From contig OZ320315.1 of the NCBI GenBank assembly GCA_976226885.1, positions 20,026,001-20,090,000 of the forward strand: a DNA stretch of 64,000 bases, written 5' to 3'. The stretch's first letter is position 1; every line of letters starts with the position of its first letter. Below are positions 1-63,685 of the stretch, piece after piece. The translations under genes were made by a program, and so were the position numbers. A model generated the notes under the pieces. It searched no databases, had not been told where the DNA came from, and saw only the letters and a program-made list of their open reading frames with translations. The stretch comes from Iphione sp. A-MEVVRFRX5. Its lineage: Eukaryota.

Positions 1-67
1 TGATCACACTCAACAGTGATCGCCTCCCAACAACGGATTACCACATGGTCTGAAGCAGCCCAGATCG

Positions 68-894: not shown

Positions 895-937
895 TAAAAG
901 TTTTTCAAAACGATACCCTCTTTGTTATTATTTCAAT

Positions 938-27700: not shown

Positions 27701-28389
27701 TCTGCCAAGGGTTGTCTCATGATGGCTGGATTCAATCTGACGACTCTTACCAGTACCATGCTGGAAGGACTGTGCCTTAAGTGTGGCAGTGTTAGTGGTA
27801 ATAGAAAAAACAACAAGATCAGTGAAGTAGAGTTCAGAACGCTTTATTCAGAACACATCAAAGGGATGGTACTTTCCCTCTCCTGACAGCTTATGGCAAT
27901 GTGGCTGACATACTATATAACACACCCCAATCTTGTGACTAGAGGACAGCATCGAACCAGGGAGTCAGACCAGAGTTTGGGCCTCGCAAACCCATGTGGG
28001 AGAGCCAAAGTCCTGTGTAGTGTTGGGGCCTCAGCTGATTCCAACAGGCAGGCTGGCTGGCTGGCTCACAGGCTGCTGCAGGAGGCTGGAGGCTGGGAGG
28101 CTCTGGGTGCAGGCTGGTTCTGGTCTAATCTCATCCAACATCCTCAGGTGGTAGTCTCAGGGGTGAGACCCCGAGTGATGGTGGAGATACTCCTTATATC
28201 TCAATCAGTCTACTGATGCTATCTCCTCATTGGCTGAGGGCAGAGCCCTTGTGATTGGCTAACTTACAAAAAGTCCAGATCTGATTGGTCGACATAATTG
28301 ATGACCCAATGCTGGCAGTAGAAGATCAAAGGAAGTGTGAGGTTCAGACCACCTGCGGTGGACTTTTGAAGTGAGCCAGGGCTTTGAAG
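24772..28389. repeat. Segment B copy 2 (G2 PR, gag 26584-27036, PBS, LTR-X)
   Basis: Direct duplicate of 12207-15826; continues into unique LTR-X U3 at 28390. Confidence 0.95.
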
Positions 28390-29074
28390 TGGACCACATG
28401 GCCCCAAGTCTGGCCAGGGGGTATGTCCTAACAAAACACTGATACCAGTTCTGTCCCTACGACATAGGGGCCATGTGGAGTCTTAGTCTTTGAAGAAGAT
28501 GGTCAACCCGGACCCATGGCCACCTGGCTTCAGCCATCAGAACTCAGGGGAGTCCTCCAGGCAGGGGCCATCTGGAGTCTTGGCTTTAAAGTTAGTACTC
28601 TCATCGGGACCTTAGCTGCTTGACCCAGGCTCTCCGAAGTCAAGAGGGTCCCTCCAGATGGGGCTATCTGGAGTCTTGCCTTTGAAGTGAGTACTCTCAT
28701 CAGGACCATGGCCACCTGGTCTCTCTTCTCTGGAGTCAGGGGAGTCTCTCCAGATGGAGGCCATCTGGTTTCTCCCAGAGTCAGCGGAGTTCCTGCAGAT
28801 GAGGGCCATCTGGCCCGACAGTCGTTTGAAGTTCTATCTGCCAAGGTCACGGTCTGGCAGTTCTTTGAAGTGTGGACTCAAGGTGAAGGTCGAGCACTCC
28901 CTCCAAGTGCTGGTAGTCTTGGCGTCGCCCCTCGCGGGAATGTCACAAGGTGAAAGTCCTTCACCCCAAGGGCGTGAGGCATCAAGGTCAAGGTCGCCAC
29001 CCTGACCCTCAAAGAGTCTGGGAGCCACGACCAACTGTCGAGGGAAGGGGGTTATCCGGTTGTCTCCCATGCCA
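27571..29074 (-). repeat. Complete LTR-X (~1.5 kb), 5' LTR of G2
   Basis: TG...CA termini (TGGCA...CATCACA on minus). Both ends coincide with the ends of the diverged copy at 61214-63685. U3 repeats, three CCAAT boxes (~28228-28290), TATA-like ATATAAG ~28195, AATAAA at 27843-27848. Confidence 0.75.
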
Positions 29075-29382
29075 GGCCAAGGTGCCTCCAAGAACCGACC
29101 AAATGGTATTGATAATCTAACACTTTCCTACTAGTAGTGTAAGTCAGGGTACATTTAATGTAGATTCTCTAATTTGTACCTTATTTTCATTATGTCTTTT
29201 TGCCATAGTAACCAAATAAATCAAGTAAAGGTACATTTTCAAAATAGCATGTAATTCAAGGCCTTTCTTTTATACAGTCCAAAATGACTACAGTATTAAA
29301 TTATGCAGCTTAACATAGTATAGGATATGACTATTACCAGTGCTCAAAACCTTACTTATCCCAGTGAGGAAAGGGTTAATGT

Positions 29383-45350: not shown

Positions 45351-46064
45351 CATCAAGAGTGTAAAAGGCTTAATGACCTATTGTATACTTGACACTTAAC
45401 GAATGACAGGATATGTTCCTTTTGGTATAAGAGGTTGGCGGTCTGCGGTGTTTGGTCGGACTCGCCCGGTTGCTGAAGAAACGCTGACTCGCTGTATCAT
45501 TCTGATGCTGAAGAAGAATAAAGGCTGACTCGAACCTGACTCGTGGTGTTTGCATTTGTGCTACAATTGTCTGCCCTCAGAGTGAAATAAATATTCTGTC
45601 ATCATTGTTGTTATTAGATGGCACATAATAAGTGTAGACCAGGTTCATGTTAGAATACTCTACATCAATAGATGACTATAAATTCATTTCTTATGTGGAA
45701 TGTTTGTTTTACTTTACAGGCATTGCCCAAACACACTCAGACAATAGAATGAGTTCATCTAAGATATGATGTCTTTATTTCTGTGTCAGTTTCTAAGGTC
45801 ACCACATGGATGTATTTACCAGCTGCACACAAGCTAGTCGCAAAATAAGACAAAAGTTTTTAATGGGGTCACCCCGAACAAGAGATGTATAACACTACAA
45901 TACAGTATATTTTTATTGTCTCAAAAACATCTACATCAAGAGATCTTCAGAATGGGACATTTATACATCAAGATCATGTCCATGCAGGCCTGGTTTTCAT
46001 ATTAAAGTGCATTCATCATTGTAATGTGTCTCAAGGAGGTTTATTCATTTTTACTTTTCCTTAC

Positions 46065-46778
46065 TGTAAACTAATGTTTGTTGTATTTCCCACTTGGAAT
46101 AAAACCAGCTATGGTCTGCTTCAAAACTGTCTTAGTGTTGCTGCCTTTGTGTCACTAGCTGCTATAGATGCTCAACCCTTAAGGTAATCCAAGTGGGTTA
46201 GGTCCCTTGAGCTTCACAGAAGAATAAGATCCACAAGTGAGTCCAATTCCAAACTGATTTTATTGGCCACACAGGGCTCATATTTATACTCATACTCAGG
46301 GTCATGTGACTGGTTCAACAAGAAACATAATAACAATCCCTGGAAGGGAAATGCTACAGTGCTCCCTTAAGGCTTCTAAAAATAGCCCAGATCAGATACA
46401 TTATATCTACCATGTGCTAGCAGGCTAAAAATAGAATGCTCCTAGCCAATGAGATCCTAGAAATTTTTAACATCTGGGTTTGGGTAACCCCAAGCTAGTT
46501 TGGGTGTCCCCAAACGGCACAGCAGGACCCCAGTCCAGGGGCCAGAGAGTACAGCTAACTTTGTAAGACATTTGGGTATCCCCAAACGACACAGCAGGTC
46601 CCCAGTACAGGGGCCAGAGAGTACAGCTAACTTTACAAGACATTTGGGTATCCCCAAACGACACAGCAGGTCCCCAGTACAGGGGCCAGAGAGTACAGCT
46701 AACTTTACAAGACATTTGGGTGTCCCCAAACGGCGCAGTAGGTCCCCAGTACAGGGGCCAGAGAGTACACTAACCACA
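46065..46778 (-). repeat. G4 3' LTR
   Basis: TGTGGTTAG...GTTTACA on minus; CCAAT ~46446; TATAAA 46288-46283; AATAAA 46264-46259. Confidence 0.97.
46499..46769. repeat. 72-bp tandem repeat (~3.7 units) in G4 U3; same at 56848-57118
   Basis: Unit starts 46499, 46571, 46643, 46715; each begins TTTGGG-N4-CCCAAA. Confidence 0.95.
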
Positions 46779-46790
46779 CTCTCCCCACCT
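46779..46790 (-). promoter_or_regulatory. G4 polypurine tract
   Basis: AGGTGGGGAGAG immediately 5' of the 3' LTR. Confidence 0.85.
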
Positions 46791-47126
46791 TAATCCCCCC
46801 TACTGGGGGAGATACGAGCACAACGTCCATCCCAGGGGGGTAGGCGACACTACCACCCTGAGAGGTCCCTACTTGCAATATGCGACACCGGGTATTTCCA
46901 CTAGTCACCAAAACATCTTGAGTACACATTTCTAAGACTTATGCAGGTAATTCCCAAATAGCCGTCTCATCACAGTAACACAAGTACATCTGGTAATGTT
47001 TCTTTTTGTGGGATACAGTTCCCTTCACTTGTCTTGAGAACATCTTAAGTAACATCCTTAACACTTACTCAGTTAATTGCCGGGTACACATCTTTAACAC
47101 TCTTTTACAATATCAGAGAGGACACC

Positions 47127-47538
47127 TGTAACAGATCATTACTTGATTATGCGTGGAGCTTCATTAATGACAATAACAGTAAGTATCACAAGAGCAACAA
47201 TCTTTTTGGGGGAATACAGTTCCCTTCATCTTTTAACCATCAACAGCTGGAATACACGGATTGTCAACAATTCTCCTACTTATTCAGGGCAATTGATCAA
47301 AACACTTTATCATCTTACCATCGGAGATATTGTAACAGATCATTACTTGATTATGCGTGGAGCTTAATTAATGACAATAACAGTAAGTATCACAGGAGCA
47401 ACAATCTTTTTTGGGGGAATACAGTTCCCTTCATCTTTTAACCATTAACAGCTGGAATACACGGATTGTCAACAATTCTCCTACTTATTCAGGGCAATTG
47501 ATCAAAACACTCTATCATCTTACCATCGGGGATATTAT
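47127..47538. repeat. 204-bp tandem duplication in the G4 3' UTR, with partial flanking copies (~47000-47030, ~47570-47650)
   Basis: TGTAACAGATCATT starts at 47127 and 47331. Confidence 0.9.
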
Positions 47539-47658
47539 ATAACAAAGGTAAATACCACATTAGGCTCACATTTTTTTTCTGGGGATACAGTTCCCCTCAT
47601 CTTCTAACCATTAACAGCTGGGATATACAACAACCCTCTTAATTGATCAGATATGTCC

Positions 47659-49275
47659 CTAGATCACCATGGCTCGCGCCTTCTTTCCCTTTACCCCTAC
47701 CTTGCCCTTCGAACTCCTCTTTCCCGTCTGACTGGGAACCAGTTCTGCTCCGATGGTGGGTGTCCACACACTACTCGCCCCCAAACAAACTTGGCGGGGA
47801 GAAGTCCCTATGCAGATGTCATGGAGGGTGGGGGTATGCTGGTGTTGCCAGGCCCGGACCGCTTCCGCCTCCTTGGCCCAGGCTTCGGGGTTGAGGCGGG
47901 GCTGGTCCGAGTCCCATGCTGGGCCGGGCTGCAGGTCCTTTATCAGTTCCTCTGCCCCCTCCACGGCTCGGTTACTTTTTTCAGTGATTGTCTCCCGGTT
48001 TCCCCACTCCCCCTGCCGAGGGAGGGCGAGACCCGGCAGTAGGAGCGCGGGCCGCTGTCGTAGGGGCCCCAGGAGGTCTTCAGGTAGCTCCCCTTCATCC
48101 TCCACCATGTGGAGGACCCAGGCCAGGGAGGAACAAGCGATGAAACGTTGTTCGGGTCGCATCTGTTGCCACCGGGGGGGCGGCCAGGTAATCTTCTCGG
48201 GTAGGCGGACGGCGGCTGGCGCCGATGGATGTCGCATCGTGGCTTTAAGATGGGGCATCAGCCCATCCAAGTAGGCCCGTACCCGGTCGGCGGTGGGAGC
48301 CACTCGGTCCGGAGGGAGTAGGCGACACACCAACCGCGACAGTCGTCCTTCGGGAAGAGGCGGGGGGGGCACCGGGGTAGGCCCGGCTAGCAGTGGGTCT
48401 CCAGGCGCTCCCCCTCCAGCCGTGCTTCGCTCCTCGTCAGCCGCCATCTCCTCCGCGTCCTGAAGCATTCGAGCGGCCACAGAGGCAGCCTCTGAGGTGT
48501 CCCAGGATACGGTGTCTAGGTAGGGTGTGAGGGGCGGGTTCCCCCAGGAGACAGCCCCACTGTCATCGTCGCTGTCGTCGTCCGGCGCCGTGGTCATCAC
48601 CGGCTCCAGTGCCGGCGTTTGGGATGGTCCGGGGCCCCCCTCACTTGCCCAAGAGGGACCAGGCGTGGGGTCATGTGGGACCTGTTCGCCCTCTATCCCC
48701 TGTGCAGCGATCCCCTCCCGTGGAGTTGCCTCGGGCACCTCGGCCCCCGTGTGAGGGGCTGTGGGTCCCCCCAGTGAGGTCGGGAGGTTCTCCAGGCTGG
48801 TGATGTGACACATTGGAATGGCTGCCCGAGGGTGTGTGGCCAGCATACTCTCAACCTGCCCGCGGTCTAGTATACGTCCCTGTAGGCGGGCAGCCCGAGC
48901 CCGGACAATCGTTTGGGACACCCCATCCCTGGGTACCTCGATGTCTCCGTCAGGGGTCTCCTTGTACAACAGTCTGTAGGGTCGGTCTAAGAGCCCTAGT
49001 CCCTCCACCCAGGGATGGTGTTTGCGGACGTGTGCCAGCCAGGCATACATATCTTTGATTCGGCTAGGGCAATAAACACAGAGCCACCTGTGTTGACGTT
49101 TGCCCTGATGGTAATCCCTCAGGTGCCTCTCTAGGGACTCCCCCCCGCAGAAAAAACGTTTTTTAGGTGTGCATAATTCACAAAGGATAGCCCCCTCCGG
49201 GAGACACATGCCCTTCTTCAGGATGCGGGGCCGCTTAGGGGGGGAAGGGTTTACACCTGTCCCGTCTTGGGCCAT
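47659..49275 (-). CDS. G4 accessory ORF: 538-aa protein with two C2H2 zinc fingers, NLS and acidic/Pro-rich region
   Basis: C32-x2-C35..F42-x5-L48-x2-H51-x4-H56 and canonical C66-x2-C69-x12-H82-x3-H86; PPKRPRILKK; DDDSDDDS; gacATGG context; uninterrupted frame. Confidence 0.8.
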   Translation of the reverse strand: MAQDGTGVNPSPPKRPRILKKGMCLPEGAILCELCTPKKRFFCGGESLERHLRDYHQGKRQHRWLCVYCPSRIKDMYAWLAHVRKHHPWVEGLGLLDRPYRLLYKETPDGDIEVPRDGVSQTIVRARAARLQGRILDRGQVESMLATHPRAAIPMCHITSLENLPTSLGGPTAPHTGAEVPEATPREGIAAQGIEGEQVPHDPTPGPSWASEGGPGPSQTPALEPVMTTAPDDDSDDDSGAVSWGNPPLTPYLDTVSWDTSEAASVAARMLQDAEEMAADEERSTAGGGAPGDPLLAGPTPVPPPPLPEGRLSRLVCRLLPPDRVAPTADRVRAYLDGLMPHLKATMRHPSAPAAVRLPEKITWPPPRWQQMRPEQRFIACSSLAWVLHMVEDEGELPEDLLGPLRQRPALLLPGLALPRQGEWGNRETITEKSNRAVEGAEELIKDLQPGPAWDSDQPRLNPEAWAKEAEAVRAWQHQHTPTLHDICIGTSPRQVCLGASSVWTPTIGAELVPSQTGKRSSKGKVGVKGKKARAMVI

Positions 49276-49322
49276 GTCGGGCCGTCTCTGTCACACTCAC
49301 CTAAATCCAGGTCTTCCCTGGC

Positions 49323-50156
49323 GTTGGGTTCACCCAAACTGGGGCTAACCTCGTCCGCTTCGTAGCCCGTTCCTGCGTCTTCTACAAGGAGCGTTTTCGT
49401 TCTCCTCCTCCTTTTTGCGTTCACCCAAACTGGGGCTAACCTTGTCTGCTTCGTAGCCCGTTCCTGCGTCTTCTACAAGGGGTGTTTTCGTTCTCCTCTT
49501 CCTTTTTGCGTACACCCAAACGTCTCAAATGCGTACTAGCCCCGTTCTTATTTTGGGCATCCCCAAACTGTAGCGATCTTTCGCATCCCGTCGGTACTCT
49601 CTTCGTGTCGACGCTGTGATAGTCTCGAACCGGATGTTTTGGTTGGCGACTTCCGGTTGCTGGAATACTCTCGAACCCAATTTTCCTTTTGCGTCTCCCC
49701 AAACGGGGGGTCGGCCGGTAGGATTTTCCGTGCTAGTTTCCACTGTTTCTTGCCGTTTTCGTCACCCTTCGTAATAATCCAGAGCTTGGGTACACACAAA
49801 CCAACGTCAACATCCCATCCAGTAAAGTCTTCGTAAACTTTTGGGTGTACGCAGACCAACAACATCGTCTTCTCGTTTGGGTGTTCGCAAAACGATCTTT
49901 TGTCCGTCATCCACAAGTTTTCGTACTTATTCCCCGGTTTATTATCATATTTATCACCCTAGTGCTGGGGTACACGCGAACCAACGTCGTCTTCCCATCT
50001 CGTCAGGTTTTCGGGCTCATTTGGGTATACGCAGACCCGCGACCTCGTCTTCTCGTTTGGGTGTTCGCAAGACGATCATCCTCGTTTGGGTGTTCGCAAA
50101 ACGACCATTCGCTCGTCGTCTATAAATTTGGCGTTGCGCGTAGCCCGCCGTCAGTC
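49323..50156. promoter_or_regulatory. Putative bidirectional internal promoter: 12 copies of TTTG[GC]G-N4-C[GC]CAAA, inverted ETS-like pair, TATA and Inr on +
   Basis: Sites at 49323, 49414, 49505, 49552, 49688, 49785, 49840, 49876, 49965, 50020, 50056, 50085. 91-bp tandem repeat at 49323-49521. CCGGATGT 49630 and ACTTCCGG 49649. TATAAA 50121, TCAGTC 50151. Confidence 0.7.
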
Positions 50157-50203
50157 GTTGCCTGGCTCTCCTGGTATACACACTGTGGGTTGTTCATCCT
50201 GAC

Positions 50204-50396
50204 ATGGAGTTCATAAGCTACCCTCCACCAGACCTGCCTGTGGGATACCCGCCCATGGAGGATAGGTAGGCTTCTTACTGAGGAGGTTGTTTGACAGTTG
50301 CTCCAGGTGTTGTGATCCTTGACAGTTCTAGCTTCATCCTGGTCTTCTGGAAAAGGTGAGTATCCATTCAGGTTACCTTGTTTGCATTCTGGCTGG

Positions 50397-50442
<46 letters not shown>

Positions 50443-51052
50443 TGTTGTAACCTGTTCCTCTTCCTCCTCTTCCAGGACTGCCACCCCAGATGCCTACTTC
50501 CGGTATGTGGACGTGGGTACTCCGGGACCCACAGTCCGCATATACGGAACGTTTCAACTCCTCTCTACAGAGCTGTTCGTTCCATCCCCGGGCCACGTGA
50601 GGATCCACTGCCCGGATCACATCCTTGATTTGAGCGTACACCCAAGCGGGTCACCTTCACCTCCGCCGCCGCCGGTTCACGACCCTGAGTGGCAGGACCC
50701 GCGCTGGGAGACGGTCTCACCTGACCTTGGTGAACGGGAGGTGGCCGAGACGCTGTTGAGTCTCTCCGATGATTATGCTGGTGATTCTTCATCCCCTTCG
50801 CTCACCTCCAGCCGGTTGGACCCATGGGACTCCGATCAGTTGTCGGCCCTACTCGGTCCCTCCCCGTCACCTCCGCAGTCACCATCCTCGTCTAGCGAAG
50901 AGTCCCGGCGCGACTCGCCCGGCCGCTGGACCCCCCTCCTGGGGCGTTCCTACCTCGATGACCTGCCCCCGCAGGTGTTGGAGTCTGCCTATCCCGGCTT
51001 GGAGCGAGGGGATTGCCCCTTCTTCCCGATCATGATCTCCGATGAAGAGTGA
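50204..51052 (+). CDS. G4 antisense spliced ORF (exons 50204-50265 and 50476-51052; 212 aa), mostly disordered Ser/Pro/acidic
   Basis: gacATGG start; donor AG|GTAGGC at 50266; branch-like GTAAC 50447; pyrimidine tract; CAG|G at 50475. The phase-2 join is in frame. AATAAA at 51153. Splicing is predicted, not observed. Confidence 0.65.
50398..50441. repeat. T44 homopolymer (A44 on the element sense strand)
   Basis: Directly visible; lies inside the predicted intron. Confidence 0.9.
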
Positions 51053-51152
51053 ACATTGACATTTCTGGAGTTGGACAGTTATAGTAATTTTCCTGATGCC
51101 GGAACTGTTTATCGTTAATGATGTTCACTGCCAGTCTTGCCATGTTTTTAGC

Positions 51153-51158
51153 AATAAA
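51153..51158 (+). terminator. Polyadenylation signal for the antisense gene
   Basis: AATAAA 100 nt after the stop, followed by GT/T-rich sequence. Confidence 0.6.
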
Positions 51159-51943: not shown

Positions 51944-54900
51944 CTACGACCTCTCCGGGTCGGGTACGTTGACTTCACTCCCCCTGTCTGGTGGAGATTT
52001 CGCGTTTTTCTTCTTCCAGGTCATGATCCACCGGGGAACCTCCTTCTTGAGGAAAGGCCGCAACCGGTTCCGGTGGACCACCTTCGCCCTAGCTTGACGG
52101 GATCGCTTGATCACCGCCCTCGCATCGTCCAGCTTCTCAGTCACCAACCAGGGGCCTGTCCACGGGAAATGGGTTTTAGGGCTGTGGCCTCGTGGCGGTT
52201 GAGCTTCATGCAGCCAGACCACATCTCCGGCTTCCAGCGGGCTCCCCTTCATCCTGCGGTCGTATGCCCTTGCCTGGACCCGAGCCGCCCGCCCGAGCCT
52301 GGTCCGCACTATCCGGTACGCATGGCGCAAGCGTCTTCTCGTATGCTCCACCCATTCTGGGAGGGGCATCTCACTCGGGTCACCCATGGGCAGACCATCC
52401 AGTGCGTGAACGGGTAGTAATACCTCACGCCCGAACATCAAAAAGTTTGGTGTAAATCCGGTGCTAGCCTGTGGCGAAGCCCTATAAGCCATCATCAGGT
52501 AAGGTAGGGCTTGATCCCATTCGTCGGACGCCTCATAGCAGTGGGCTTTCACCATCCTTCCCAAAGTGCGGAAACTCCTCTCGATATACCCGTCACTTTG
52601 AGGGTGGCGTGGTGTGGTCCGGGTCTTCTTGATGTCTAAGAAGTTACAGAGTGCCAGGATGATCTCGCTGCAAAAATTCGTCCCCTGGTCACTATGAAGC
52701 TCTTGGAAACATCCATACCTGGTGATCACTTCTTCCATCAACACCTCCGCTACTCTGGTTGCTTTCTGATCGGGCAGGGGAAAGGCCTCTAGCCACTTGG
52801 TGAAGTGATCCCCCACCATAAGGACATATCGGTTTCCCCGCCGGGTCTCTGGCAGTGGGCCGGCTACGTCGATAGACCATCTCTCCATGGGTTCGCCCGA
52901 GATGTATGTCCGGAGTGCGGTCTGCGGCCTCCGCGGATTCTGGTTGAGCAGAGCGCAGTGGCAGCTTGTACACCACCCCTCTATGTCGTCTCGCATCCTC
53001 GGCCAGTAATACGCGAGTCCCACCAGATGAGTTGTCCTGTCGGCTGCCAGGTGTGCCCCTGCCTGACCGCTGTGAACTTCCTGGAAAGCTCGTTGCCGGA
53101 ACTCTGTGGGAAGCACCACTTGTAGCCGAGAGGGGTCACCCTCGAAACCCACCCATTTCCGGTGCAAGAGGCCCCCTTGGGCCGTCAGGCGGCCCCATTG
53201 TCGCCAGAGGCTCTTACAGGCGGCTGACAGGGGTGCCACCTGTTCCCAGGCTGGCTGAGTAGGGTCAGCTTCTAGCAGCCGTAGGATGGGGCCAATGTCA
53301 TCATCGCGGAGCTGGGCTTGTCGAAGCTCCGGGTGTGATGAGACCTGTGCTTGGGCTCTGGTCACGGCGGCAACCTTGGCTGGTACTTCTTCATCCTCCT
53401 GATGGGTCTGCTTGCATTGGCGACATGGCTTGCGGGAAAGAGCATCCGCGTTAGCGTTGTTTTTCCCCGCCCTATGTTCTAACCGGAGGTTGTACTGACC
53501 CACTCGTTCTATCCACCTGGCGAGCTGCCCCTCCGGGTCCTTGATTCGACTCAGCCAACTAACGGCTCCATTATCTGTCCGTACCGTCACCTGTTGCCCG
53601 TAGATGTAAAAGTGAAAGTGCTTCAGGGCAGCAACCACGGCTAACAGCTCCCGTCGCATGACACAGTACCTTCTTTCTGAGGCACTCAAGCTCCGACTGA
53701 AGTAGGCGAGCACCACCTCACGGTTGTCTTGCTGTTGTGCTAGCACCGCCCCCAGGCCTACGTTACTGGCGTCCGTGTCGAGCAGGTAGCGCCCCTCCAT
53801 TCGTGGATATCCCAACACCGGACTGGACGTCAGGGCCTCTTTCAGCTGGCGGAAGGCTTCTTCTTGAGGTGCGCCCCAAGCAAACTCGGCCTTCGAGCTA
53901 GTTAATGGGTTCAGCGGGGCAGCCAGATTTGCGAAGTGAGGCACATACCTGCGGTAGTAGGAGCATATCCCAAGGAAGGCCCTCACCCCCGTTGGGCAGG
54001 TGGGCACAGGCCACTCCCGGATAGCCCGGGTCTTAGCTGGGTCAGTGGCCACTCCCTCCTTCGAAACTATATGTCCTAGGAAGCCTATCTCCTGTAGGAA
54101 CAGCTGACATTTCGTCGGTTTCAGTTTCAATCCGGCTGTTTCTAGACGGGACAACACTCGTTCCAGCCGGTCCAAGGTCTCGTCGAACTCCCGTCCGAAA
54201 ACCAAGATGTCGTCGAGGTAGACGAGACATTGTTCCCAAGTCAGCCCCCTCAGCACGGTGTCCATTAAGCGTTCGAAGGTAGCTGGTGCGTTTATCAAGC
54301 CGAAAGGCATTACTGTGAATTCGTATAATCCGACAGAAGTAGAGAAAGCTGTCTTCTCCTGGTCTTCTGGGTGCATCTTGACCTGCCAATACCCCGACGC
54401 CAGGTCAAGAGAACAGAAGTACCGAGCCCCAGCGAGGGTACTTAGAGAGTCATCGATCCTAGGGAGAGGATAGGCGTCAACTTTGGTCTTCTGGTTTAGC
54501 TTGCGGTAGTCGACGCAAAACCGGGTGGTTCCATCTTTCTTCCTCACCATCACAACCGGGCTAGACCAGGGACTCCTACTTTCGACGATCACCCCCGCTG
54601 TCTTCATTTCTTCTACTAAGCGACGCTCCTCCTGACGCTTAGCCAGCGGGAGACGCCGCGGAGGTTGTTTGATGGGATGGGGATCGTCAGTGAAGATGCG
54701 ATGTTGAGTCCAGTCAGTATGCCCCAGGTCATGCCGGCCCTTGGAGAAAACCTGACCATGCCTCTCCAGCACTATACCCAGGCGTTCTTGTTGTTCTGAT
54801 GTCAGAGTGTGCCGGGTGGCTTCTACCAAGTTTTTCACATTAGCTGGCTGTTCCTCCCGTATCAGACAAACCCTCCCGGTGGGGGCCACTGACTCACTCT

Positions 54901-55627
54901 TACAGGGCCGGGCGGGCACTCCCAGGGCTACCTTGGTGCCTTGGCTTATAAAAACCTCCACTTCTCCTACATTCCACACAGGGAGTACATCTTGCACGAC
55001 ACACCGGATGCTAATCAATCCCTTCTCGATCTGAGCTTCTACCAGGCCCTCCACCATCACAGGATGGTGTTCTGATAGGCAAAGGGGCACCAGGGTCCCT
55101 TCTCCGGGTGGGACAGTGATGTCACAGGCAGTGCATACCTCTCCCTTGAGGGTAGTGATACCCCTGCACCTGGATATTCCTGGTTTGAACACAACCTCCT
55201 GTTTAGCCAGATTGATAACCGCCTGGTGTTGGCATAGAAAGTCACTCCCCAATATGCCATCCTCCTCTATTTCAGCTATGATGAAAGGGTGCTGGAATTG
55301 CCTCCCTGCTATGCTGATCTCACAAACTTGTTGCCCCTGAGTGGGAATGATGTGGCCCCCCGCTCCTGCAATACGAGTCAGTGGTTCTTCACCCCCCAGG
55401 CCAGGGACCACACGGGGATTCACAATGGATACTTCAGCTCCCGTATCAATCAATAGCAACAGTTCAGTTCCATTCAGGCTTACCTTTAGCCGTGGTCCCT
55501 GACCTGGTTCCATTGTGGTCTCCGTATGCGTAATCCCAGTCGAACCCTCCTGGCCTATTGGGTTGACTGCGTCCCGTTTCCCTGTAGTGTGGGGCAATCC
55601 CGCTTGAAGTGGCCTGGTTGACCGCAC
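51944..55627 (-). CDS. pol: G4 Pol polyprotein (PR-RT-RNase H-INT), intact
   Basis: LIDTGAEVS; SPWSSPVVMV..YLDDILV; LDTDASNVGLG..ELLAVV..RTDN; H..H..C..C, DVAGP, SDQG, PQSDGYIERSFRT, PWTGPW; 1227 codons open. Confidence 0.97.
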   Translation of the reverse strand: MRSTRPLQAGLPHTTGKRDAVNPIGQEGSTGITHTETTMEPGQGPRLKVSLNGTELLLLIDTGAEVSIVNPRVVPGLGGEEPLTRIAGAGGHIIPTQGQQVCEISIAGRQFQHPFIIAEIEEDGILGSDFLCQHQAVINLAKQEVVFKPGISRCRGITTLKGEVCTACDITVPPGEGTLVPLCLSEHHPVMVEGLVEAQIEKGLISIRCVVQDVLPVWNVGEVEVFISQGTKVALGVPARPCKSESVAPTGRVCLIREEQPANVKNLVEATRHTLTSEQQERLGIVLERHGQVFSKGRHDLGHTDWTQHRIFTDDPHPIKQPPRRLPLAKRQEERRLVEEMKTAGVIVESRSPWSSPVVMVRKKDGTTRFCVDYRKLNQKTKVDAYPLPRIDDSLSTLAGARYFCSLDLASGYWQVKMHPEDQEKTAFSTSVGLYEFTVMPFGLINAPATFERLMDTVLRGLTWEQCLVYLDDILVFGREFDETLDRLERVLSRLETAGLKLKPTKCQLFLQEIGFLGHIVSKEGVATDPAKTRAIREWPVPTCPTGVRAFLGICSYYRRYVPHFANLAAPLNPLTSSKAEFAWGAPQEEAFRQLKEALTSSPVLGYPRMEGRYLLDTDASNVGLGAVLAQQQDNREVVLAYFSRSLSASERRYCVMRRELLAVVAALKHFHFYIYGQQVTVRTDNGAVSWLSRIKDPEGQLARWIERVGQYNLRLEHRAGKNNANADALSRKPCRQCKQTHQEDEEVPAKVAAVTRAQAQVSSHPELRQAQLRDDDIGPILRLLEADPTQPAWEQVAPLSAACKSLWRQWGRLTAQGGLLHRKWVGFEGDPSRLQVVLPTEFRQRAFQEVHSGQAGAHLAADRTTHLVGLAYYWPRMRDDIEGWCTSCHCALLNQNPRRPQTALRTYISGEPMERWSIDVAGPLPETRRGNRYVLMVGDHFTKWLEAFPLPDQKATRVAEVLMEEVITRYGCFQELHSDQGTNFCSEIILALCNFLDIKKTRTTPRHPQSDGYIERSFRTLGRMVKAHCYEASDEWDQALPYLMMAYRASPQASTGFTPNFLMFGREVLLPVHALDGLPMGDPSEMPLPEWVEHTRRRLRHAYRIVRTRLGRAARVQARAYDRRMKGSPLEAGDVVWLHEAQPPRGHSPKTHFPWTGPWLVTEKLDDARAVIKRSRQARAKVVHRNRLRPFLKKEVPRWIMTWKKKNAKSPPDRGSEVNVPDPERS

Positions 55628-56385
55628 TGGAAGCAGTTGTTATGCCTGGGCTTCCTGTTTCTTGCCTCTTCCTTACTCCGAAGATCTTCCCGGATCTTGG
55701 CCAGCTCTTGCGTCAGTTCTTCCAAGGGCTTCCTCCACTCTGGCGTTGCTGAGGGCTGTACCACTTGAATCTTCCTGGCCGCGAAGCGCTCTTGCGTCTC
55801 CACCACCTGGATTGCCGTGTCCAAAGTGGTGCACTTGGCCTCCAAGCACTTAAGGTGTAGGGTGTCCGATAGGGCTCGTTGGAAAGCAGCCACAGCAGCC
55901 AGCTCGCGCGTCTCCCCACTAACATCCGGGTATGCGCTCCGGACCAGTCGGCGGACTCTGTCTGCTAGATCCCTGGTATCCTCATCCCGTTGCCGCTTGA
56001 TACTGGACAGCTTTTGCATAGCCACCACACGATCACGACGGCGGCCGAACCTCCTCTCCAAAGCTGCCACTCGGGAGTTGAAATCCCTCTTGTCCTCCGT
56101 CGGTAAATCTCCATAGTACATCCTGGCCGGGCCCGTCAGAGACAGCGTGAGGGCCGAACACTTAGTGCCCTCGTTCCAATGACATGCATCGGCCCACTCG
56201 GTGAACTGATTTATCCAGCTGTCCCAGTCGACAACTTTTCCGTCGAAGCGTTCTGGCTTCATGGTGTTCATCTTGAGTGGTTCCTCCGGTGCAATCTCAA
56301 AGTGCTCAACTTCTTCCTCTTCCGGAGTAGGACTAGGAATCCGGAGTGAGACTTCCTCATCCACTGTCAAGTAGTTGGTTGCCAT
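55555..56385 (-). CDS. gag: G4 Gag (276 aa from MATNYL) with a C-terminal CCHC knuckle
   Basis: KPERFDG..WDSWINQF, L..LTGPA, QRDEDTRDLADRVRRL, CFQCGQPGHFKRDC. Confidence 0.95.
   Translation of the reverse strand: MATNYLTVDEEVSLRIPSPTPEEEEVEHFEIAPEEPLKMNTMKPERFDGKVVDWDSWINQFTEWADACHWNEGTKCSALTLSLTGPARMYYGDLPTEDKRDFNSRVAALERRFGRRRDRVVAMQKLSSIKRQRDEDTRDLADRVRRLVRSAYPDVSGETRELAAVAAFQRALSDTLHLKCLEAKCTTLDTAIQVVETQERFAARKIQVVQPSATPEWRKPLEELTQELAKIREDLRSKEEARNRKPRHNNCFQCGQPGHFKRDCPTLQGNGTQSTQ
55576..55582 (-). promoter_or_regulatory. -1 ribosomal frameshift slippery site G GGA AAC
   Basis: In the gag frame caG GGA AAC (Q-G-N); a -1 shift enters the pol frame (GGG AAA CGG), five codons before the gag stop. 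Confidence 0.8.
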
Positions 56386-56394
56386 TCTTCTGTG

Positions 56395-56412
56395 ATCCCA
56401 CCGCTGCCACCA
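56395..56412 (-). promoter_or_regulatory. G4 primer binding site, tRNA-Leu
   Basis: TGGTGGCAGCGGTGGGAT, complement of the eukaryotic tRNA-Leu 3' end ATCCCACCGCTGCCACCA, one base after the LTR. Confidence 0.9.
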
Positions 56413-56413
56413 G

Positions 56414-57127
56414 TGTAAACTAATGTTTGTTGTATTTCCCACTTGGAATAAAACCAGCTATGGTCTGCTTCAAAACTGTCTTAGTGTTGCTGCCTTTGTG
56501 TCACTAGCTGCTATAGATGCTCAACCCTTAAGGTAATCCAAGTGGGTTAGGTCCCTTGAGCTTCACAGAAGAATAAGATCCACAAGTGAGTCCAATTCCA
56601 AACTGATTTTATTGGCCACACAGGGCTCATATTTATACTCATACTCAGGGTCATGTGACTGGTTCAACAAGAAACATAATAACAATCCCTGGAAGGGAAA
56701 TGCTACAGTGCTCCCTTAAGGCTTCTAAAAATAGCCCAGATCAGATACATTATATCTACCATGTGCTAGCAGGCTAAAAATAGAATGCTCCTAGCCAATG
56801 AGATCCTAGAAATTTTTAACATCTGGGTTTGGGTAACCCCAAGCTAGTTTGGGTGTCCCCAAACGGCACAGCAGGACCCCAGTCCAGGGGCCAGAGAGTA
56901 CAGCTAACTTTGTAAGACATTTGGGTATCCCCAAACGACACAGCAGGTCCCCAGTACAGGGGCCAGAGAGTACAGCTAACTTTACAAGACATTTGGGTAT
57001 CCCCAAACGACACAGCAGGTCCCCAGTACAGGGGCCAGAGAGTACAGCTAACTTTACAAGACATTTGGGTGTCCCCAAACGGCGCAGTAGGTCCCCAGTA
57101 CAGGGGCCAGAGAGTACACTAACCACA
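56414..57127 (-). repeat. G4 5' LTR
   Basis: Same sequence as 46065-46778. Confidence 0.97.
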
Positions 57128-60100
57128 TTACTTTCATTGGTCAATTGTTCCATGCTTTACACCATCTTCAAATAATGTCTTCCTAACAATGTTACTCCTA
57201 GTTTAAAAAAGTTTCACATTAATTTCACAACCTTTCCTAGTTTTTGTCTTGTATTTGATTGGGAGTTTGTTATTGAAAACCATTCAATGTGTTAGTTAAA
57301 TAGCTGATATGCACATACAATGATCTGTTGTATCAATAGGATAGACAATTATGGTTGGCCTAAAACACATTTGGCACATTTGTTATAAACCTTTCTGGGT
57401 TTTCTTATTTTCACTTTAGATTCATTACAAATGGCCAGTCTGAAGTAATCTATTAATGGATGAATGTACATTTTGAATAGGTTTATGTGTATCTCTAAGG
57501 GAAGGAAAGATCTAAGTTTGCTTAGGTTATATGTAGACCTCCACATCTTAGAAACTGTTTTGTTCTACACATGATAGTTTATCATTCAGAGTATATGCCA
57601 GTATATTGAGAGCTCTAGATAGCTTGAGGATATTGCCATTGTATGTAATAGTTGAAGCATCACAACTGTGGATTCCATTGATACAAAAACTACTTTTTTC
57701 ATTGCTAAGAGAAAGATTATTACTTTTGCACCACTCCATAATGTATTTGTACGTCAAGCATATGTCTTCTTCCAGTTTATCTATATCCTCTCCATTTGCA
57801 ACACACATTATATTGTCCACATACATTGTTACTTTTGTATGATTGAGGGAGTGAAAACATACGTCATTTATTAATAGCGAAGATCTAAGGGAACCAAAGA
57901 TGCTCCCCTGTGGATTGCCAATTGTTTCAGAAAATTTTGATGATTTCATACCATTCACATGCAAATATTGTTCTCTACCATCAAAATAACCTTTAACAAG
58001 GCCAATATATTCTTTTTAGCTCCCTCTACCTGTAATACCTTTAGGATGATAGCACAATTCAGCAAATTGAAAGCTTTAGTAAGATCAAATGCTACAACTG
58101 CTACTACTTTTCTTTGGACTATACCATCACAGATATTTAATAGAATTTCCCTTGAGGCAGATTTGGTTAAGCGTACCTTTAAAACCCATGTTGACTTGGT
58201 GACTAAAAACCTATCCTGAAAAGCTCATCATTAAGTATATCACATAAAAGTTTTCAAATAATTTTCCAGATAAGGGGAGCATACTGACTGGCCTATAGTT
58301 ACTAAGAAGCTCTTTTTTACCCTTCTTGTCAACTGGTATAATCCTAGCAGTTTTAGAACTCCTGACATATGTCCCTTTATCTATGATAGCCTTGAATAGT
58401 CTTACCATGTATGGAGCTAGTATGAGGAGACTGTCTCTAAGAGTTGAGCTCTCAAGCTCAGGTATATTACTGCATTTGTAACAGTCAATTGTAAATTGTA
58501 CTTACTGCTTTTACTGCATCTGCAATCATGATGCTTCTTATTGATATGTTGTCATTGCCATACTGGGTTCTGCAACACTGCTGCATTGCCATTTCATTTG
58601 CAATATTTTTAAGAGTATTTCTGAAAAATGAATCAGATTTTCCAGGTTGTTTTGGGGTTTTTAGTGTTATTCTTAAGTCTGTTATGAAAAATCTCTGATA
58701 AGACATCTGTAGTTCAATCTTAACAATTTTATCCAGATATTTATAAGTACATGTATTGTTGGCATCATGATCATTGTGTATATTTGCTTTTTCAAATAAA
58801 TATCTCCTATCTTTTATTAATTTGATCAATGCTTTGTCTATGTTTACCTTTCTTTTTGGCCTATTATTCTTATTGGTGAAATGTTTTGGGCAGATTTCAT
58901 CGTAGGAATAAAGAATGATATTCCCAGAGTTGATCTGATGTAGTCGGCAGTTTTTGTCCACTTTTACCTTCAACAATGCTTTTAAATATTCGATGGGGCT
59001 ATTTTGCTTTGTCTCTCATTATATATTTCTGGTCTGGAGAGTCAACAATCCTTTGACCTGTTTTATACTCAATCGACACTCCGAAGTGATCACTATACGA
59101 AGTCTCCACTACTCTAACATTATTTAGCACATAACTATTAGTGAACATTTGATCACTGATTTTTTGGCTGTTAACCATAGTGCTATGCCCAATTTGTTGT
59201 AAAAGGTTATACATATGCAACATACTGGTGGGCTTCCTTACCCGTGGATTGTCTGTGTTCCAGCCCATATTAAAGTCACCAGTTAGTAGTACAAGCCTCT
59301 TTTGGTGAGGCTGCCACCTCTTGAGAAGTTTGTAAACACTGCAAAAAATTTGGCAATAGAACCATCTGGTGGTTGATACAGTAACATAATAATCAATGGT
59401 TTCAGTTTGCTGTATGAGACCTTTACTGTAACCAGCTCAAATAAATCAGAGTTTATACAAGCATCATCAACCAATTCACATAAGCAGTTTTCTTTGACAT
59501 AGATCAATAGCCTAAGACTAGAACTTTTTTCATGGGATATCCTGTCCTGTCTTATGATAGTGTATCAATTGATGCTAATGTTTGTGTCTGGGGTTTTACT
59601 ACTGAGTCATGTTTCAGTTAAACATGTAGCAAAAGGCGATGACCAAAGGATGTCATCCTTGAAAATTTGAAACATTTTATAGATGCTACTAACATTACAC
59701 TGATATAATTATACAGTATCTCATAGTGAGTTGTCAAATTGTGGAAAGAAGAACTACAAGTGAGTTGAAGCGAAAATAATATTCGATGAGGAAATCCTTA
59801 ATTTCCTTCAACCATCGATCAGTCACGAAACCTGGAAGCTAATCATCCGAACTGATGAGCTCATATCTAAAAATAACATTAAAACCTATTACCTCATTCA
59901 CAACTGGGCATGTATCAGGTGTGCTTAATCAGTTCTGCTTGCTTATTATTTGCACCCAACTGTTGAGTTTTCCAACGCTGATATTTAGATCTCACTGATG
60001 TTTAGAGTTCATATTGTTAATTTGAAAGCCATGAACAGGTAAAAAGCCATCATTGTGGAAGTGAGGTTTGTACAGAACCCGAAAAATATCATACATTTGC

Positions 60101-61213: not shown

Positions 61214-63685
61214 TGTGATGTTTTGGTTGCTGCAGGATACCACTTCCCTTGGGATCTTCTTAGGGGAGGCCTTATGTTTAATAAAGCGAACTGCTGTTAC
61301 CAACAGACTGCCTTCAGGTCCTGTATTTCCTTCTTCTCTCTTCTTCTGCAAGTGGTAGGCTTGTGGTGGTTGAATTCTGTGTGACGCCTCTTACCAGTAC
61401 CATGGTGCTAGAGGGGAATCGCGCTTTGCATGTGGCAGTGTGAGTGGCAACAGAAATGACAAAGAAGTCAGAAACTCAAGTTTAGAACTCTTTATTCAGA
61501 GCACATTAAAGGGATGGTACCCTCCCCCTCCTGACATCTGATGGCAAAGTGGCTGGCTGGTTCGCAGGCTGCTGCAGGAGGCTGGAGGCTGGCAGGCTCT
61601 GGATGCATGCTGGTTCTGGTTTCGTCTTGTCCGGCATCCTCAGGTGGTGATCTCAGGATGTGAGATACCCAACGATTGTGGGCACGCTCACTATATTGTT
61701 AAGTTATCAACTCTAGGACACGTTTTCCCCTCAAAAATCTCCTCGTCTCCAAACTTATGTCCGAGGGCCAGACCTTTAGGGGAAGGTACCTTCGGGGGAA
61801 GGTGCCTTTGGCGGAGGGTCTACCTTTGTCAGAAGGTCCGATTGATCCACCCATCCCTCCCCGTCATACCTTTAAGGGAAGGTACCTTTGGGGGAAGGTA
61901 ACTTTGGCGAAGGGTCTACCTTTGTCGGAAGGTTCGATTGATCCATCCATCCCTCCCCGCTATACCTTTGAGGGAAGGTACCCTTGGCAGAAGGTCTGAC
62001 TAACCCACCCACCCACCCCCGTTATATAATATTAGATCATACCCTATTGCATCATACCTTTATGGGAAGGTGCCTTTGAGAGAAGGTACCCTTGGCAGAA
62101 GGTCTGACTAACCCGTCCACCCACCCCCATTATATAATATTAGATCATACCCTATTACACCATACCTTTATGGGAGGGTACCTTTGAGAAAAGGTACCCT
62201 TGGCAGAAGGTCTACCTTTGTCAGAGGGTCTGATTGACTCCACCCCCCCCCCTCATTATCATAAAGGCCAGGACCCTTTATAACCAGGGAGCTCAAGCCC
62301 CCGAGCATCCATACCTTGACTGGGAGCAGACCGCTGCACATCTCCTTAGGAACAACCTTTGGCCTGGACCTAACCACCACTCTGGACTTATACACTGGAC
62401 TGAACAGGTTTACCTTCAAGGGATAACCAACACAGTCTTTTCCAGTCCTCCTGCAGGAATAGGCTATTTGGGAACTCTAGTTCTCAATATAAGCAGTGAA
62501 CCTCCCAGCCCACTAGGACTTGTTGCCACAGAGATACTGCCAGGTCGAGGACTCATGCCCCACATGCATAGTTCTCAATAAAAAGGTGGAAGCCTAAAAA
62601 CTTGCGTGACTCCTTTCTTTGGCTGATCCCGCATAAAGTCACTTACAAAAATATAACAACTGAAAGTAGGTGAACTTAAAAATATTCTAACCAGTCTCAT
62701 GATGCTGTCTCCTCATTGGCTGAGGGAGGAGTCCATTTGATTGGCCAGCCGAGAAAAGGTCCGGATCTCATTGATCGACATAATTGATGACCCCATGATG
62801 GCGGCAGGAGATCAAAGGAAGTGTCAGGTTCAGACAACCTGAGGTGGACCTTTGAAGTGAACCGGGGCTTTGAAGTGCACCACATGACCCTGAATCTGGC
62901 CAGGGGGCATGTCCTAACAAAACATCAGTACCATCTTCCTCATCCGGGGGCAAGGGCCACCTAGAACTATGTCTTTGAAGCGATCCATTAGGCAGGGCTT
63001 TGAAGTAGGCCACATGGTCCAAAGTTCAGCCAGGGGACACGTCCTGACAAAACACTGGCCCCAGTCACATCACCAGGGGACAAGGGCCATCTGGAAATCT
63101 GTTCTTGAAGGGATCCATCAGGCAGGGCTTTGAAGTGGACCACTTGGCCCAAAGTTCAGCTAGGGGACATGTCCTGACAAAATACTTATGGCAGCCCTGC
63201 CCCCACGAGGTGAGGGCCATCTGGAGTCTTATCTTTGAAGCGGACAGTCCCATTGGGGCCATGGTCATCTGGGGACCTCGGCCACCTGGTCTCAGTTCTC
63301 CCCGGAGTCAGGAGGAGTCCTCCAGTTGGGGGCAATCTGGTTTCTTCTTGGAGTCAGGGGAGTGTTCCAAATGGGCCATCTGGTTTACCCCTGGTGTCAG
63401 GGGAGTTCTCCAGATAGGGGCCATCTGGCCCGCTTTCGTTTGAAGTTCTCCATGGTCAAGGTCTTTTAGTCCCTTTGAAGTGTGTGGATCCAATGTCAAG
63501 GTCAAGCAATCCCCCGAAGTGGTGGCTGTTTGGTATCATCCCTCTTGGGTGTGCCCCAATATCAAGGTCCTTCCCCGAGGATGTAAGGCATTAAGGTTAA
63601 GGCCGTCACCCTGACCTTCAGGGAGTCCAGACCCTCCCCTCAGTGGTCCAGAGAGGAGGGTTATCATGCCGTCGTCCCAATGCCA
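61214..63685 (-). repeat. Solo LTR-X-family copy carrying an ~1 kb internal insertion (~61650-62690)
   Basis: 61214-61650 matches 27571-28170 and 62690-63685 matches 28215-29074; same TGGCA and CATCACA termini. No TSD recognised. Confidence 0.75.
61772..62250. repeat. Minisatellite built from 16-bp palindromic subunits ACCTT-N6-AAGGT in ~95-120 bp higher-order units
   Basis: ACCTTTAGGGGAAGGT, ACCTTCGGGGGAAGGT, ACCTTTGTCAGAAGGT and variants. Confidence 0.85.

What the first reader, a model, noticed from the sequence alone, without database searches (positions are those of the whole stretch)
49323..50100. 16-bp palindrome TTTG[GC]G-N4-C[GC]CAAA: 12 copies between the accessory genes, 5 per LTR, flipping orientation mid-array
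Exact matches at 49414, 49505, 49552, 49688, 49876, 50085 and in the LTR at 46499, 46571, 46643, 46715 (+10349 for the 5' LTR). Near matches at 49323, 49785, 49840, 49965, 50020, 50056 and 46479. Half-sites and the 4-bp spacer length are kept while spacer and flanking bases differ, and LTR and internal contexts are otherwise unrelated. Asymmetric sites read TTTGCG..CCCAAA on the left and the reverse complement TTTGGG..CGCAAA on the right, mirrored about ~49750 and close to an inverted ETS-like pair. I noticed no such cluster elsewhere in the window. Inference: binding sites of a dimeric factor, most simply the element's own ZnF protein.
Basis: partly seen in the sequence, partly recalled or inferred. 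Interest (0 to 1): 0.88.

Follow-up and report, generated by a model that had tools for sequence, protein, structure and literature searches.

The report
Shared palindrome in retrotransposon's two promoters
A young jumping gene in an animal genome carries the same unusual mirror-image DNA word many times in both of its likely promoters, which suggests that one protein, possibly the element's own zinc-finger protein, controls both, but that binding is untested.

Summary
The palindrome is real. All listed sites are at the stated coordinates inside an intact Ty3/Gypsy element with identical 714-bp LTRs. No match with one mismatch or fewer lies in the 52.9 kb outside it. The 22 copies reduce to 8 duplication classes (6 internal, 2 LTR) and still beat a pattern-free test (0 of 5,935 shuffles). 

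Three corrections. The spacer is constrained, so the unit is about 18 bp with abutting half-sites. The orientation flip is not significant once duplicates are merged (P=0.25). A different palindrome array of the same geometry lies at 61.8-62.2 kb. 

RNA hairpins are disfavoured: 10 of 12 internal stems are mismatched. The sites lie in the LTR U3 and in a CpG island between two divergent accessory genes, and match none of 242 fly SELEX seeds by eye. They are most likely double-stranded binding sites of one dimeric factor (about 0.85). That the factor is the element's own two-finger protein is plausible but untested (about 0.45). It has no close homologue and weak recognition helices, and dimerisation could not be tested. 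If true, this is a foamy-virus-like self-regulating circuit in a Gypsy retrotransposon.

The parts
49323..50100 (.). Internal array of 12 dyad sites in a CpG island between two divergent accessory genes (putative bidirectional internal promoter); 6 duplication classes
   Evidence: (CpG o/e 1.27)
49323..49520 (.). Class A sites 49323, 49414, 49505 (91-bp tandem repeat)
49552..49567 (.). Class B site, symmetric GGG/CCC type
49629..49658 (.). Inverted pair of ETS-like sites (49629-49637 +, 49649-49658 -); matches fly ETS seeds NACCGGAAGTN / TAMCGGATGCN
49688..49703 (.). Class C site, last with the GCG half on the left
49785..50100 (.). Classes D, E, F (49785/49965, 49840/50020, 49876/50056/50085); 180-bp and 29-bp duplications; GCG half on the right
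46479..46730 (-). Five sites in the 3' LTR U3 (four in the 72-bp repeat, one unique), 191-427 nt upstream of the LTR TATA at 46288
56828..57079 (-). Five sites in the 5' LTR U3 (identical copy)
46065..46778 (-). 3' LTR, 714 bp, TG...CA; TSD TTAC at 46061-46064; polypurine tract 46779-46800
56414..57127 (-). 5' LTR, 100% identical to the 3' LTR; TSD TTAC at 57128-57131; primer binding site 56396-56412 (tRNA-Leu-like, recalled)
47659..49275 (-). Sense accessory ORF, 538 aa, two C2H2 fingers (residues 32-56, 66-87), basic N- and C-terminal NLS-like runs, acidic/Pro-rich middle; ATG 48 nt from the first site; candidate binder
50121..51158 (+). Antisense accessory gene (inferred): TATA 50121 (21 nt from the last site), ATG 50204, donors 50266 (weak) and 50356 (9/9), in-frame 30- or 24-nt microexon ending 50355, acceptor 50475, stop 51052, AATAAA 51153; acidic Ser/Pro-rich product
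51944..55639 (-). pol, uninterrupted: protease, RT, RNase H, integrase (Ty3/Gypsy order)
55555..56457 (-). gag with CCHC zinc knuckle

Best explanation
The 16-18-bp dyad (consensus about K-TTTGSGKR.YMCSCAAA-M) is a double-stranded DNA recognition site for one dimeric protein, multiplied by local tandem duplication in the two promoters of an intact Gypsy element: the LTR U3 (gag-pol) and an internal CpG-island bidirectional promoter (sense ZnF gene, antisense spliced gene). Most likely circuit: host ETS-type factors give the internal CpG island basal activity; it makes the two-finger protein; a dimer of it, one finger pair per half-site, binds both arrays, feeds back on its own promoter and switches on (or shields from silencing) the LTR. 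SHOWN: the sites, their symmetry, spacing, placement and amplification; the element's anatomy. INFERRED: promoter activity of the internal region, protein binding, dimerisation, identity of the binder, activating sign.
For: Non-random after de-duplication (0 of 5,935 shuffles; 8 of 8 classes above 52,900 outside positions; an internal-only PWM ranks 3 of 3 LTR sites tested above all outside positions). Only spacer 4 of 0-15 inside the element. 25 of 25 exact half-sites are paired. LTR and array share nothing longer than 15-21-bp core matches apart from two 10-mers. Stems mismatched in 10 of 12 internal sites. Sites flank a TATA box (21 nt) and the ZnF ATG (48 nt) and lie 191-427 nt upstream of the LTR TATA. 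Array CpG o/e 1.27 against 0.13 in the LTR and 0.13-0.62 in 25 of 26 outside 2-kb bins. ZnF ORF is 538 codons open (P about 3e-7 by composition) in an element with identical LTRs, with two C2H2 fingers. Post hoc and weak: finger 1 has Arg at +6 and Glu at +2, finger 2 Ala at +3 and +6, which under the recalled C2H2 code fits TTT-GNN-K. No exact fit to Dif, Rel, NfI, gcm, slbo, lz, T-box or GACCACCCA in 17 of 17 sites; no matching dyad among 242 fly HT-SELEX seeds read by eye. Precedents: Tas binds DNA in both LTR and internal promoter (PMC7390438, passages); VANC motifs accumulate by tandem repeats in non-coding parts of their own element (PMC5735166, passages).
Against: No binding, expression or dimer data. 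Only 1 of 6 positions -1/3/6 is basic, finger 2 (D,M,Y,A,W,L,A) looks hydrophobic, and the linker is QGKRQHR: thin for a G-rich half-site with invariant G4 and G6. No homologue to test conservation of contact residues (0 hits; 1 generic multi-finger hit at E 4e-4 among 1.84 billion). Absence from the flanks says little about a host factor (about 0.009 exact hits expected in the unique outside sequence). Another LTR-like stretch carries its own 6+4+6 dyad array with no known ZnF gene beside it, so such arrays may be ordinary here. Cores are only marginally more conserved than flanks across duplications (7 of 96 against 41 of 290 differences, P=0.052, with selection bias). No helical phasing (R<=0.34). 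The orientation flip is not significant.
Confidence: 0.45

Rival explanations
1. The dyad is bound by a host factor (an uncharacterised dimeric or multi-finger zinc-finger protein, a THAP dimer or similar) that the element exploits in both promoters; the ZnF ORF does something else.
For: LTR enhancer repeats usually bind host factors (recalled). Neighbouring LTR-like sequence is rich in TCF-like and NR5A-like words (recalled consensus) and has another dyad array. A TTTGGG-N3-CGCAAA look-alike lies in another family's LTR (15413/27976, one duplicated copy; 0.15 expected for any spacer 0-15). The THAP consensus TXXGGGX(A/T) (PMC10824691, one passage) fits 11 of 34 half-sites; the GLI site GAACACCCA (PMC2930663, one passage) lies in 3 of 17 sites. 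Weak recognition helices in the element's protein.
Against: None of ten motifs tested explains all sites or the TTT/AAA ends and fixed dyad; GLI fits one duplication class only; THAP fails at GCG halves and matches 287 places in the window. No match among 242 fly seeds by eye. Vertebrate-specific motif libraries could not be searched.
Confidence: 0.35
2. The sites bind protein but serve a non-promoter role (insulator, methylation boundary or nucleosome positioning), or are read by another element product.
For: The array coincides with the element's only strong CpG island; 14 of 17 sites have a CpG within 2 bp or inside; two B-box-like words (recalled consensus) flank the ETS pair.
Against: Placement next to TATA boxes and an ATG fits promoters; the antisense product is acidic (30 D/E, 11 K/R in 191 aa) with no DNA-binding domain found; GCG halves are not significantly tied to the internal region (0 of 4 against 5 of 12, P=0.24).
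Confidence: 0.09
3. The motif acts as an RNA (or single-stranded DNA) stem-loop, 6-bp stem and 4-nt loop, for packaging, export or strand transfer.
For: Symmetric copies (all LTR sites, 49552) fold at -5.8 to -9.6 kcal/mol.
Against: 10 of 12 internal sites have a C.C, G.G or G.A mismatch in mid-stem and none is the compensated GCG/CGC form; the 6 asymmetric sites folded give 0 to -3.3 kcal/mol; the loop sequence inverts along the array; Rfam gave only one chance hit (mir-238, E 0.34, 24.5 bits against a cut-off of 80).
Confidence: 0.05
4. Neutral residue: one chance palindrome spread by tandem duplication and template switching.
For: 22 copies fall into 8 classes; classes D-F may be older duplicates too; core-versus-flank conservation only P=0.052.
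Against: Cores stay 12-15 of 16 identical in inverted register while flanks share 4-12 of 24; the same core is in LTR and array with unrelated flanks; G4 and G6 invariant in 34 of 34 halves.
Confidence: 0.06

Closest known systems
Foamy virus Tas (Bel-1) circuit
   Same: Two promoters (LTR U3 and an internal promoter ahead of accessory genes); an element-encoded protein that binds DNA in both and feeds back (PMC7390438, passages). This is what it most likely works like.
   Different: Host element is a Ty3/Gypsy retrotransposon with no env found; the internal promoter looks bidirectional; both promoters share one explicit palindrome, whereas the foamy promoters have little sequence relatedness; the candidate is a C2H2 protein; binding is unproven.
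VANC anti-silencing proteins of Arabidopsis VANDAL (Mutator) transposons
   Same: A short family-specific motif at high density in non-coding parts of the element, multiplied by tandem repeats (PMC5735166, passages).
   Different: VANC motifs are 8-9-bp non-palindromic words in one orientation, in plant DNA transposons; no VANC-like domain here; demethylation untested.
Plant Retand (Tat) Gypsy elements with additional ORFs
   Same: Long pol-3'LTR region (5,165 bp here; 2,933-6,566 bp there), antisense ORF, tandem repeats, proposed regulatory DNA-binding product (PMC11963269, abstract and Discussion).
   Different: Animal element; divergent gene pair; no TRP28 domain found; a defined dyad shared with the LTR is not mentioned in the parts of that paper read.
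Oikopleura Tor elements
   Same: Animal LTR elements with an internal promoter downstream of pol (PMC4402516, passages).
   Different: That promoter drives env; no shared palindromic array or ZnF gene in the passages read.
Papillomavirus E2 sites (ACCG-N4-CGGT) and 72/75-bp enhancer repeats of SV40 and MLV (recalled, from no call)
   Same: Palindrome with a 4-bp spacer bound by a self-encoded dimer; 72-bp U3-type repeats.
   Different: Different sequence and protein fold; the SV40/MLV repeats bind host factors.

Membership tests
Ty3/Gypsy LTR retrotransposon (carrier element) | pol order protease-RT-RNase H-integrase, gag upstream | tested here: met
   Pfam; named pol hits are K02A2.6-like, 412-like or Ty3-like, best 62% identity
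Ty3/Gypsy LTR retrotransposon (carrier element) | TG...CA LTRs, TSD, PBS, PPT | tested here: met
   714-bp identical LTRs, TSD TTAC; PBS and PPT
Foamy virus Tas circuit | Retroviral (spumaviral) pol and env | tested here: not met
   pol hits are Gypsy-like; no env family among 10 element ORFs scanned
Foamy virus Tas circuit | Active internal promoter driving the regulator | tested here: inconclusive
   Sequence signs only: CpG island, TATA 50121, ETS pair, splice and poly(A) signals; no TATA-box match on the ZnF side
Foamy virus Tas circuit | Element-encoded protein binds DNA in both promoters and transactivates | not testable with these tools
   needs EMSA/SELEX and reporters
VANC-type anti-silencing system | Short motif enriched in non-coding parts of own element and multiplied by tandem repeats | tested here: met
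VANC-type anti-silencing system | Non-palindromic motifs in one orientation, in a Mutator-like DNA transposon | tested here: not met
   dyad in an LTR retrotransposon
VANC-type anti-silencing system | Protein-dependent loss of DNA methylation | not testable with these tools
   only CpG o/e available
Retand (plant Tat lineage) | Long pol-3'LTR region with antisense ORF and tandem repeats | tested here: met
Retand (plant Tat lineage) | TRP28 domain in the antisense ORF | tested here: not met
   no Pfam family at E<=0.1 for the antisense ORFs
Sequence-specific C2H2 transcription factor (ZnF ORF) | Tandem C2H2 fingers | tested here: met
   two fingers, residues 32-56 and 66-87; weak matches to PF13894 (E 0.018, below cut-off), ZBTB17 and INSM1
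Sequence-specific C2H2 transcription factor (ZnF ORF) | TGEKP-type linker and base-contact residues at -1/3/6 suited to the site | tested here: inconclusive
   linker QGKRQHR; G,S,R and D,A,A at -1/3/6; code recalled
Sequence-specific C2H2 transcription factor (ZnF ORF) | Dimerisation, needed for a dyad | not testable with these tools
Known host motifs (NF-kB/Rel/Dif, NFI, GCM, C/EBP, RUNX, T-box, GLI, THAP) | Consensus fits most of the 17 distinct sites | tested here: not met
   exact fits 0 of 17 for eight motifs, 3 of 17 for GAACACCCA, 8 of 17 for the 5-base THAP pattern
Vertebrate-specific host motifs (JASPAR, CIS-BP, HOCOMOCO) | Matrix match to the dyad | not testable with these tools
   no motif library available

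The most novel reading that the evidence does not exclude
An animal Gypsy retrotransposon encodes its own sequence-specific dimeric C2H2 transcription factor and has built a private operator array for it in both its LTR and an internal bidirectional CpG-island promoter, paired with an antisense, spliced, disordered protein that carries Sin3-, CtBP- and SUMO-binding-like motifs (recalled patterns): a host-independent on/off switch comparable to foamy Tas or HTLV Tax/HBZ, evolved outside Retroviridae, with a new DNA motif and a new protein family.
Probability: 0.4. Interest if true: 0.85.

Novelty: new variant of a known kind. Interest (0 to 1): 0.64.

Why it matters
The function of additional ORFs in LTR retrotransposons is stated as unknown in the papers read (PMC11963269, PMC8220671). 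Here a candidate regulator and a candidate target motif sit side by side in a recently inserted, intact element, so the question 'do retrotransposons make their own transcription factors?' becomes a single binding assay plus a reporter. A positive result would give a complex-retrovirus-like circuit in a Gypsy element, a way to restart silenced copies in trans, and a compact orthogonal factor-operator pair. A negative result would still point to an uncharacterised host motif.

Tried and rejected
Homologues of the ZnF ORF: none at E<=0.001 among proteins of 295-942 aa; 1 generic multi-finger protein in the all-length profile library. Homologues of the last antisense exon: none of 669 candidates at E<=0.01, 105-335 aa only. 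ESM Atlas: no answer. Single-sequence folds: residues 1-170 pLDDT 54.8, pTM 0.50; C-terminal 233 aa pLDDT 35.6; fold searches with the first gave nothing (Foldseek best E 0.37; best Z 3.3), which says nothing about the fold. Inverted duplication of the whole array: rejected. Helical phasing: none. RNA hairpin: disfavoured. NFI (spacer and base differ), NF-kB/Dif (spacer 5, GCG variants), GLI (one class only), THAP, GCM, C/EBP, RUNX, T-box, E2F: no fit. Codebook paper (PMC13538051): main-text search for palindrom/dimer/inverted repeat found only a reference; its supplements were not read and might hold a matching human motif. No tRNA gene in the window. No similarity of the LTR or array to the rest of the window at E<=1. 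Ten paper searches (listings only, open-licence library only) showed no report of this motif or of a Gypsy element with a self-encoded zinc-finger transactivator.

Full report
Context. The finding lies in an intact Ty3/Gypsy LTR retrotransposon on the minus strand. Its LTRs (56414-57127 and 46065-46778) are 714 bp, 100% identical, run TG...CA and are flanked by the duplication TTAC, so the insertion is recent. A primer binding site and a polypurine tract are in place (the tRNA-Leu assignment is recalled). gag and an uninterrupted pol carry the Gypsy domain order; the best pol relative is 62% identical. CpG o/e is 0.13-0.62 in 25 of 26 two-kb bins outside the element, which suggests a globally methylated, vertebrate-like host (inference; the species was not determined). 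Between pol and the 3' LTR lie 5,165 bp with two divergent accessory genes: a 538-aa sense ORF with two C2H2 fingers (ATG 49275) and an antisense gene with a TATA box at 50121, splice signals, an in-frame microexon and AATAAA at 51153 (gene model inferred from signals only).

Observation. In 49291-50120 there are 6 exact sites and 10 with at most one mismatch, against maxima of 0 and 1 in 500 shuffles and 0 and 0 in the 52,937 bp outside the element. The copies are not independent: a 72-bp repeat in each LTR and 91-, 180- and 29-bp duplications inside reduce 22 copies to 8 classes. I repeated the test on one site per class and without naming the pattern. TTTGnG with spacer 4 came out four times internally and once in the LTR; no dyad of any sequence or spacer 0-12 reached four in 5,935 shuffles. 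A leave-one-class-out PWM put 8 of 8 classes above all 52,900 outside positions, and a model from internal sites alone did so for 3 of 3 LTR sites tested. The two weakest listed sites (49323, 49965) score about the same as the best outside position, 33434.

Corrections. The spacer is constrained: position 7 is T/G in 30 and position 8 is A/G in 30 of 34 half-sites, and the base before the half-site is G or T in 16 of 16 collapsed halves. The unit is therefore about 18 bp of two abutting half-sites. The flip is real as a description, with the GCG half facing outward towards each gene. But five independent asymmetric sites give one switch with P=0.25, no inverted homology extends past the cores, and the ETS pair is about 100 bp left of the switch. 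A different dyad of the same 6+4+6 geometry occurs nine times at 61772-62195.

What kind of signal. Inside the element only spacer 4 occurs among spacers 0-15, and all 25 exact half-sites in the array and one LTR are paired. The middle stem pair is mismatched in 10 of 12 internal sites and never takes the compensated GCG/CGC form. The six asymmetric sites folded give 0 to -3.3 kcal/mol, and Rfam finds nothing above chance. Independent half-sites at fixed spacing are what a dimer on double-stranded DNA leaves (established knowledge). Cores stay 12-15 of 16 identical in inverted register while flanks share 4-12 of 24. LTR and array share only the cores. The sites lie 191-427 nt upstream of the LTR TATA, 21 nt from the antisense TATA and 48 nt from the ZnF ATG. 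The array is a CpG island (o/e 1.27; LTR 0.13), the highest of 632 tiles; only the first 1.3 kb of the window comes close. Against selection: cores differ at 7 of 96 positions and flanks at 41 of 290 across duplications, P=0.052, with a bias in favour of cores, and the sites are not helically phased. I put a shared protein-binding site at about 0.85.

Which protein. Ten motifs were scored against the 17 distinct sites: eight never fit exactly, the GLI site GAACACCCA fits the three class-F sites, and the 5-base THAP pattern fits eight but also 287 places in the window. I read the 242 fly HT-SELEX seeds in supplement 1 of PMC4362205 (parts 1-2) by eye. The nearest dyads (Dif, Rel, NfI, gcm) differ in spacer or bases. 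Vertebrate motif libraries were not available, and the Codebook supplements were not read. The element's ZnF ORF is open for 538 codons (P about 3e-7), has two fingers matching generic C2H2 proteins, basic termini and an acidic middle, and has no close homologue. Its helices carry G,S,R and D,A,A at -1/3/6, with Glu at +2 of finger 1. Under the recalled code this is compatible with TTT-GNN-K, but only one basic contact residue for a G-rich half-site and a non-canonical linker weaken the case. I give the element's own protein 0.45 and a host factor 0.35.

Mechanism proposed. Host ETS-type factors give the internal CpG island basal two-way transcription. The ZnF protein dimerises on the internal array and on the U3 array, reinforces its own promoter and activates or protects the LTR. 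The antisense product, acidic and Ser/Pro-rich with Sin3-, CtBP- and SUMO-binding-like patterns (recalled), may be a co-regulator. Only the anatomy is shown; every functional step is inferred.

Comparison. It would work like foamy virus Tas, which binds both the LTR and an internal promoter and starts a feedback loop (PMC7390438, passages). It is not a foamy virus, and unlike foamy viruses its two promoters share an explicit motif. Tandem amplification of a family-specific motif matches VANC/VANDAL (PMC5735166, passages), which differ in element class and motif form. The layout resembles plant Retand elements, whose extra ORFs have unknown, possibly regulatory roles (PMC11963269, abstract and Discussion), and Tor elements have an internal promoter for env (PMC4402516, passages). 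I also saw passages of PMC13547354, PMC10824691, PMC2930663 and PMC8220671 and one reference line of PMC13538051. Ten searches of the open-licence library (listings only) showed no report of this motif or of such a circuit in a Gypsy element; subscription journals and repeat databases were not covered.

Verdict. A real, strongly non-random and apparently undescribed dyad shared by two promoter-like regions of a young Gypsy element. The binder is unidentified, with the element's own zinc-finger protein a slight favourite. New variant of a known kind; interest 0.64, and 0.85 if self-binding is shown.

Noticed in passing
window 61772-62229: Second dyad array, ACCTTY-N4-RAAGGT, 9 exact and 15 relaxed copies, often tiled at 16-bp period in 96/108-bp repeats, inside a ~1-kb stretch (61682-62688) missing from the related LTR at about 27571-29080.
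   Followed up: partly
window 15413 and 27976: TTTGGG-N3-CGCAAA with the same G/C flanks as the main motif, in the LTR-like region of a second Gypsy family (one duplicated copy); 0.15 expected by chance for any spacer 0-15.
   Followed up: partly
window 50121-51158 (+): Antisense gene with three inferred exons, including a frame-keeping 30- or 24-nt microexon and a 44-nt T run in the second intron; product without homologues, with Sin3-, CtBP- and SUMO-binding-like patterns (recalled).
   Followed up: partly
window 46528-46759 and 56877-57108: A second palindrome, CCCCWG-NN-CWGGGG, once in each 72-bp LTR unit and nowhere else in the window.
   Followed up: no
window 49300 (-): Strong splice donor (8/9) 25 nt upstream of the ZnF ATG; could give alternative products lacking the fingers.
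   Followed up: no
window 49623-49678: TCTCGAACC twice around the inverted ETS pair; the reverse complement resembles a Pol III B-box (recalled).
   Followed up: no
window 49878, 50058, 50087: The published GLI site GAACACCCA (minus strand) lies inside the three class-F sites.
   Followed up: yes
window 46779-47658: AT-rich 205-bp tandem repeat between the ZnF stop and the 3' LTR, presumably 3' UTR.
   Followed up: no
window 3211-28389: A second, degraded Gypsy family with extra ORFs beyond pol, present as an 8.95-kb inverted and a 3.6-kb direct duplication at 98.6-98.7% identity.
   Followed up: no
window 20-1990: Adenovirus-type protease ORF (PF00770, E 0.006, below cut-off; Maverick/Polinton-like, recalled) in CpG-rich sequence, followed by an ORF that looks like an envelope fragment by eye but has no Pfam hit.
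   Followed up: no
window 33434 and 50631: Single near matches to the dyad (13.2 and 11.3 bits); 33434 is outside the element with CCAAT- and TATA-like words nearby, 50631 is inside the antisense gene's last exon.
   Followed up: partly
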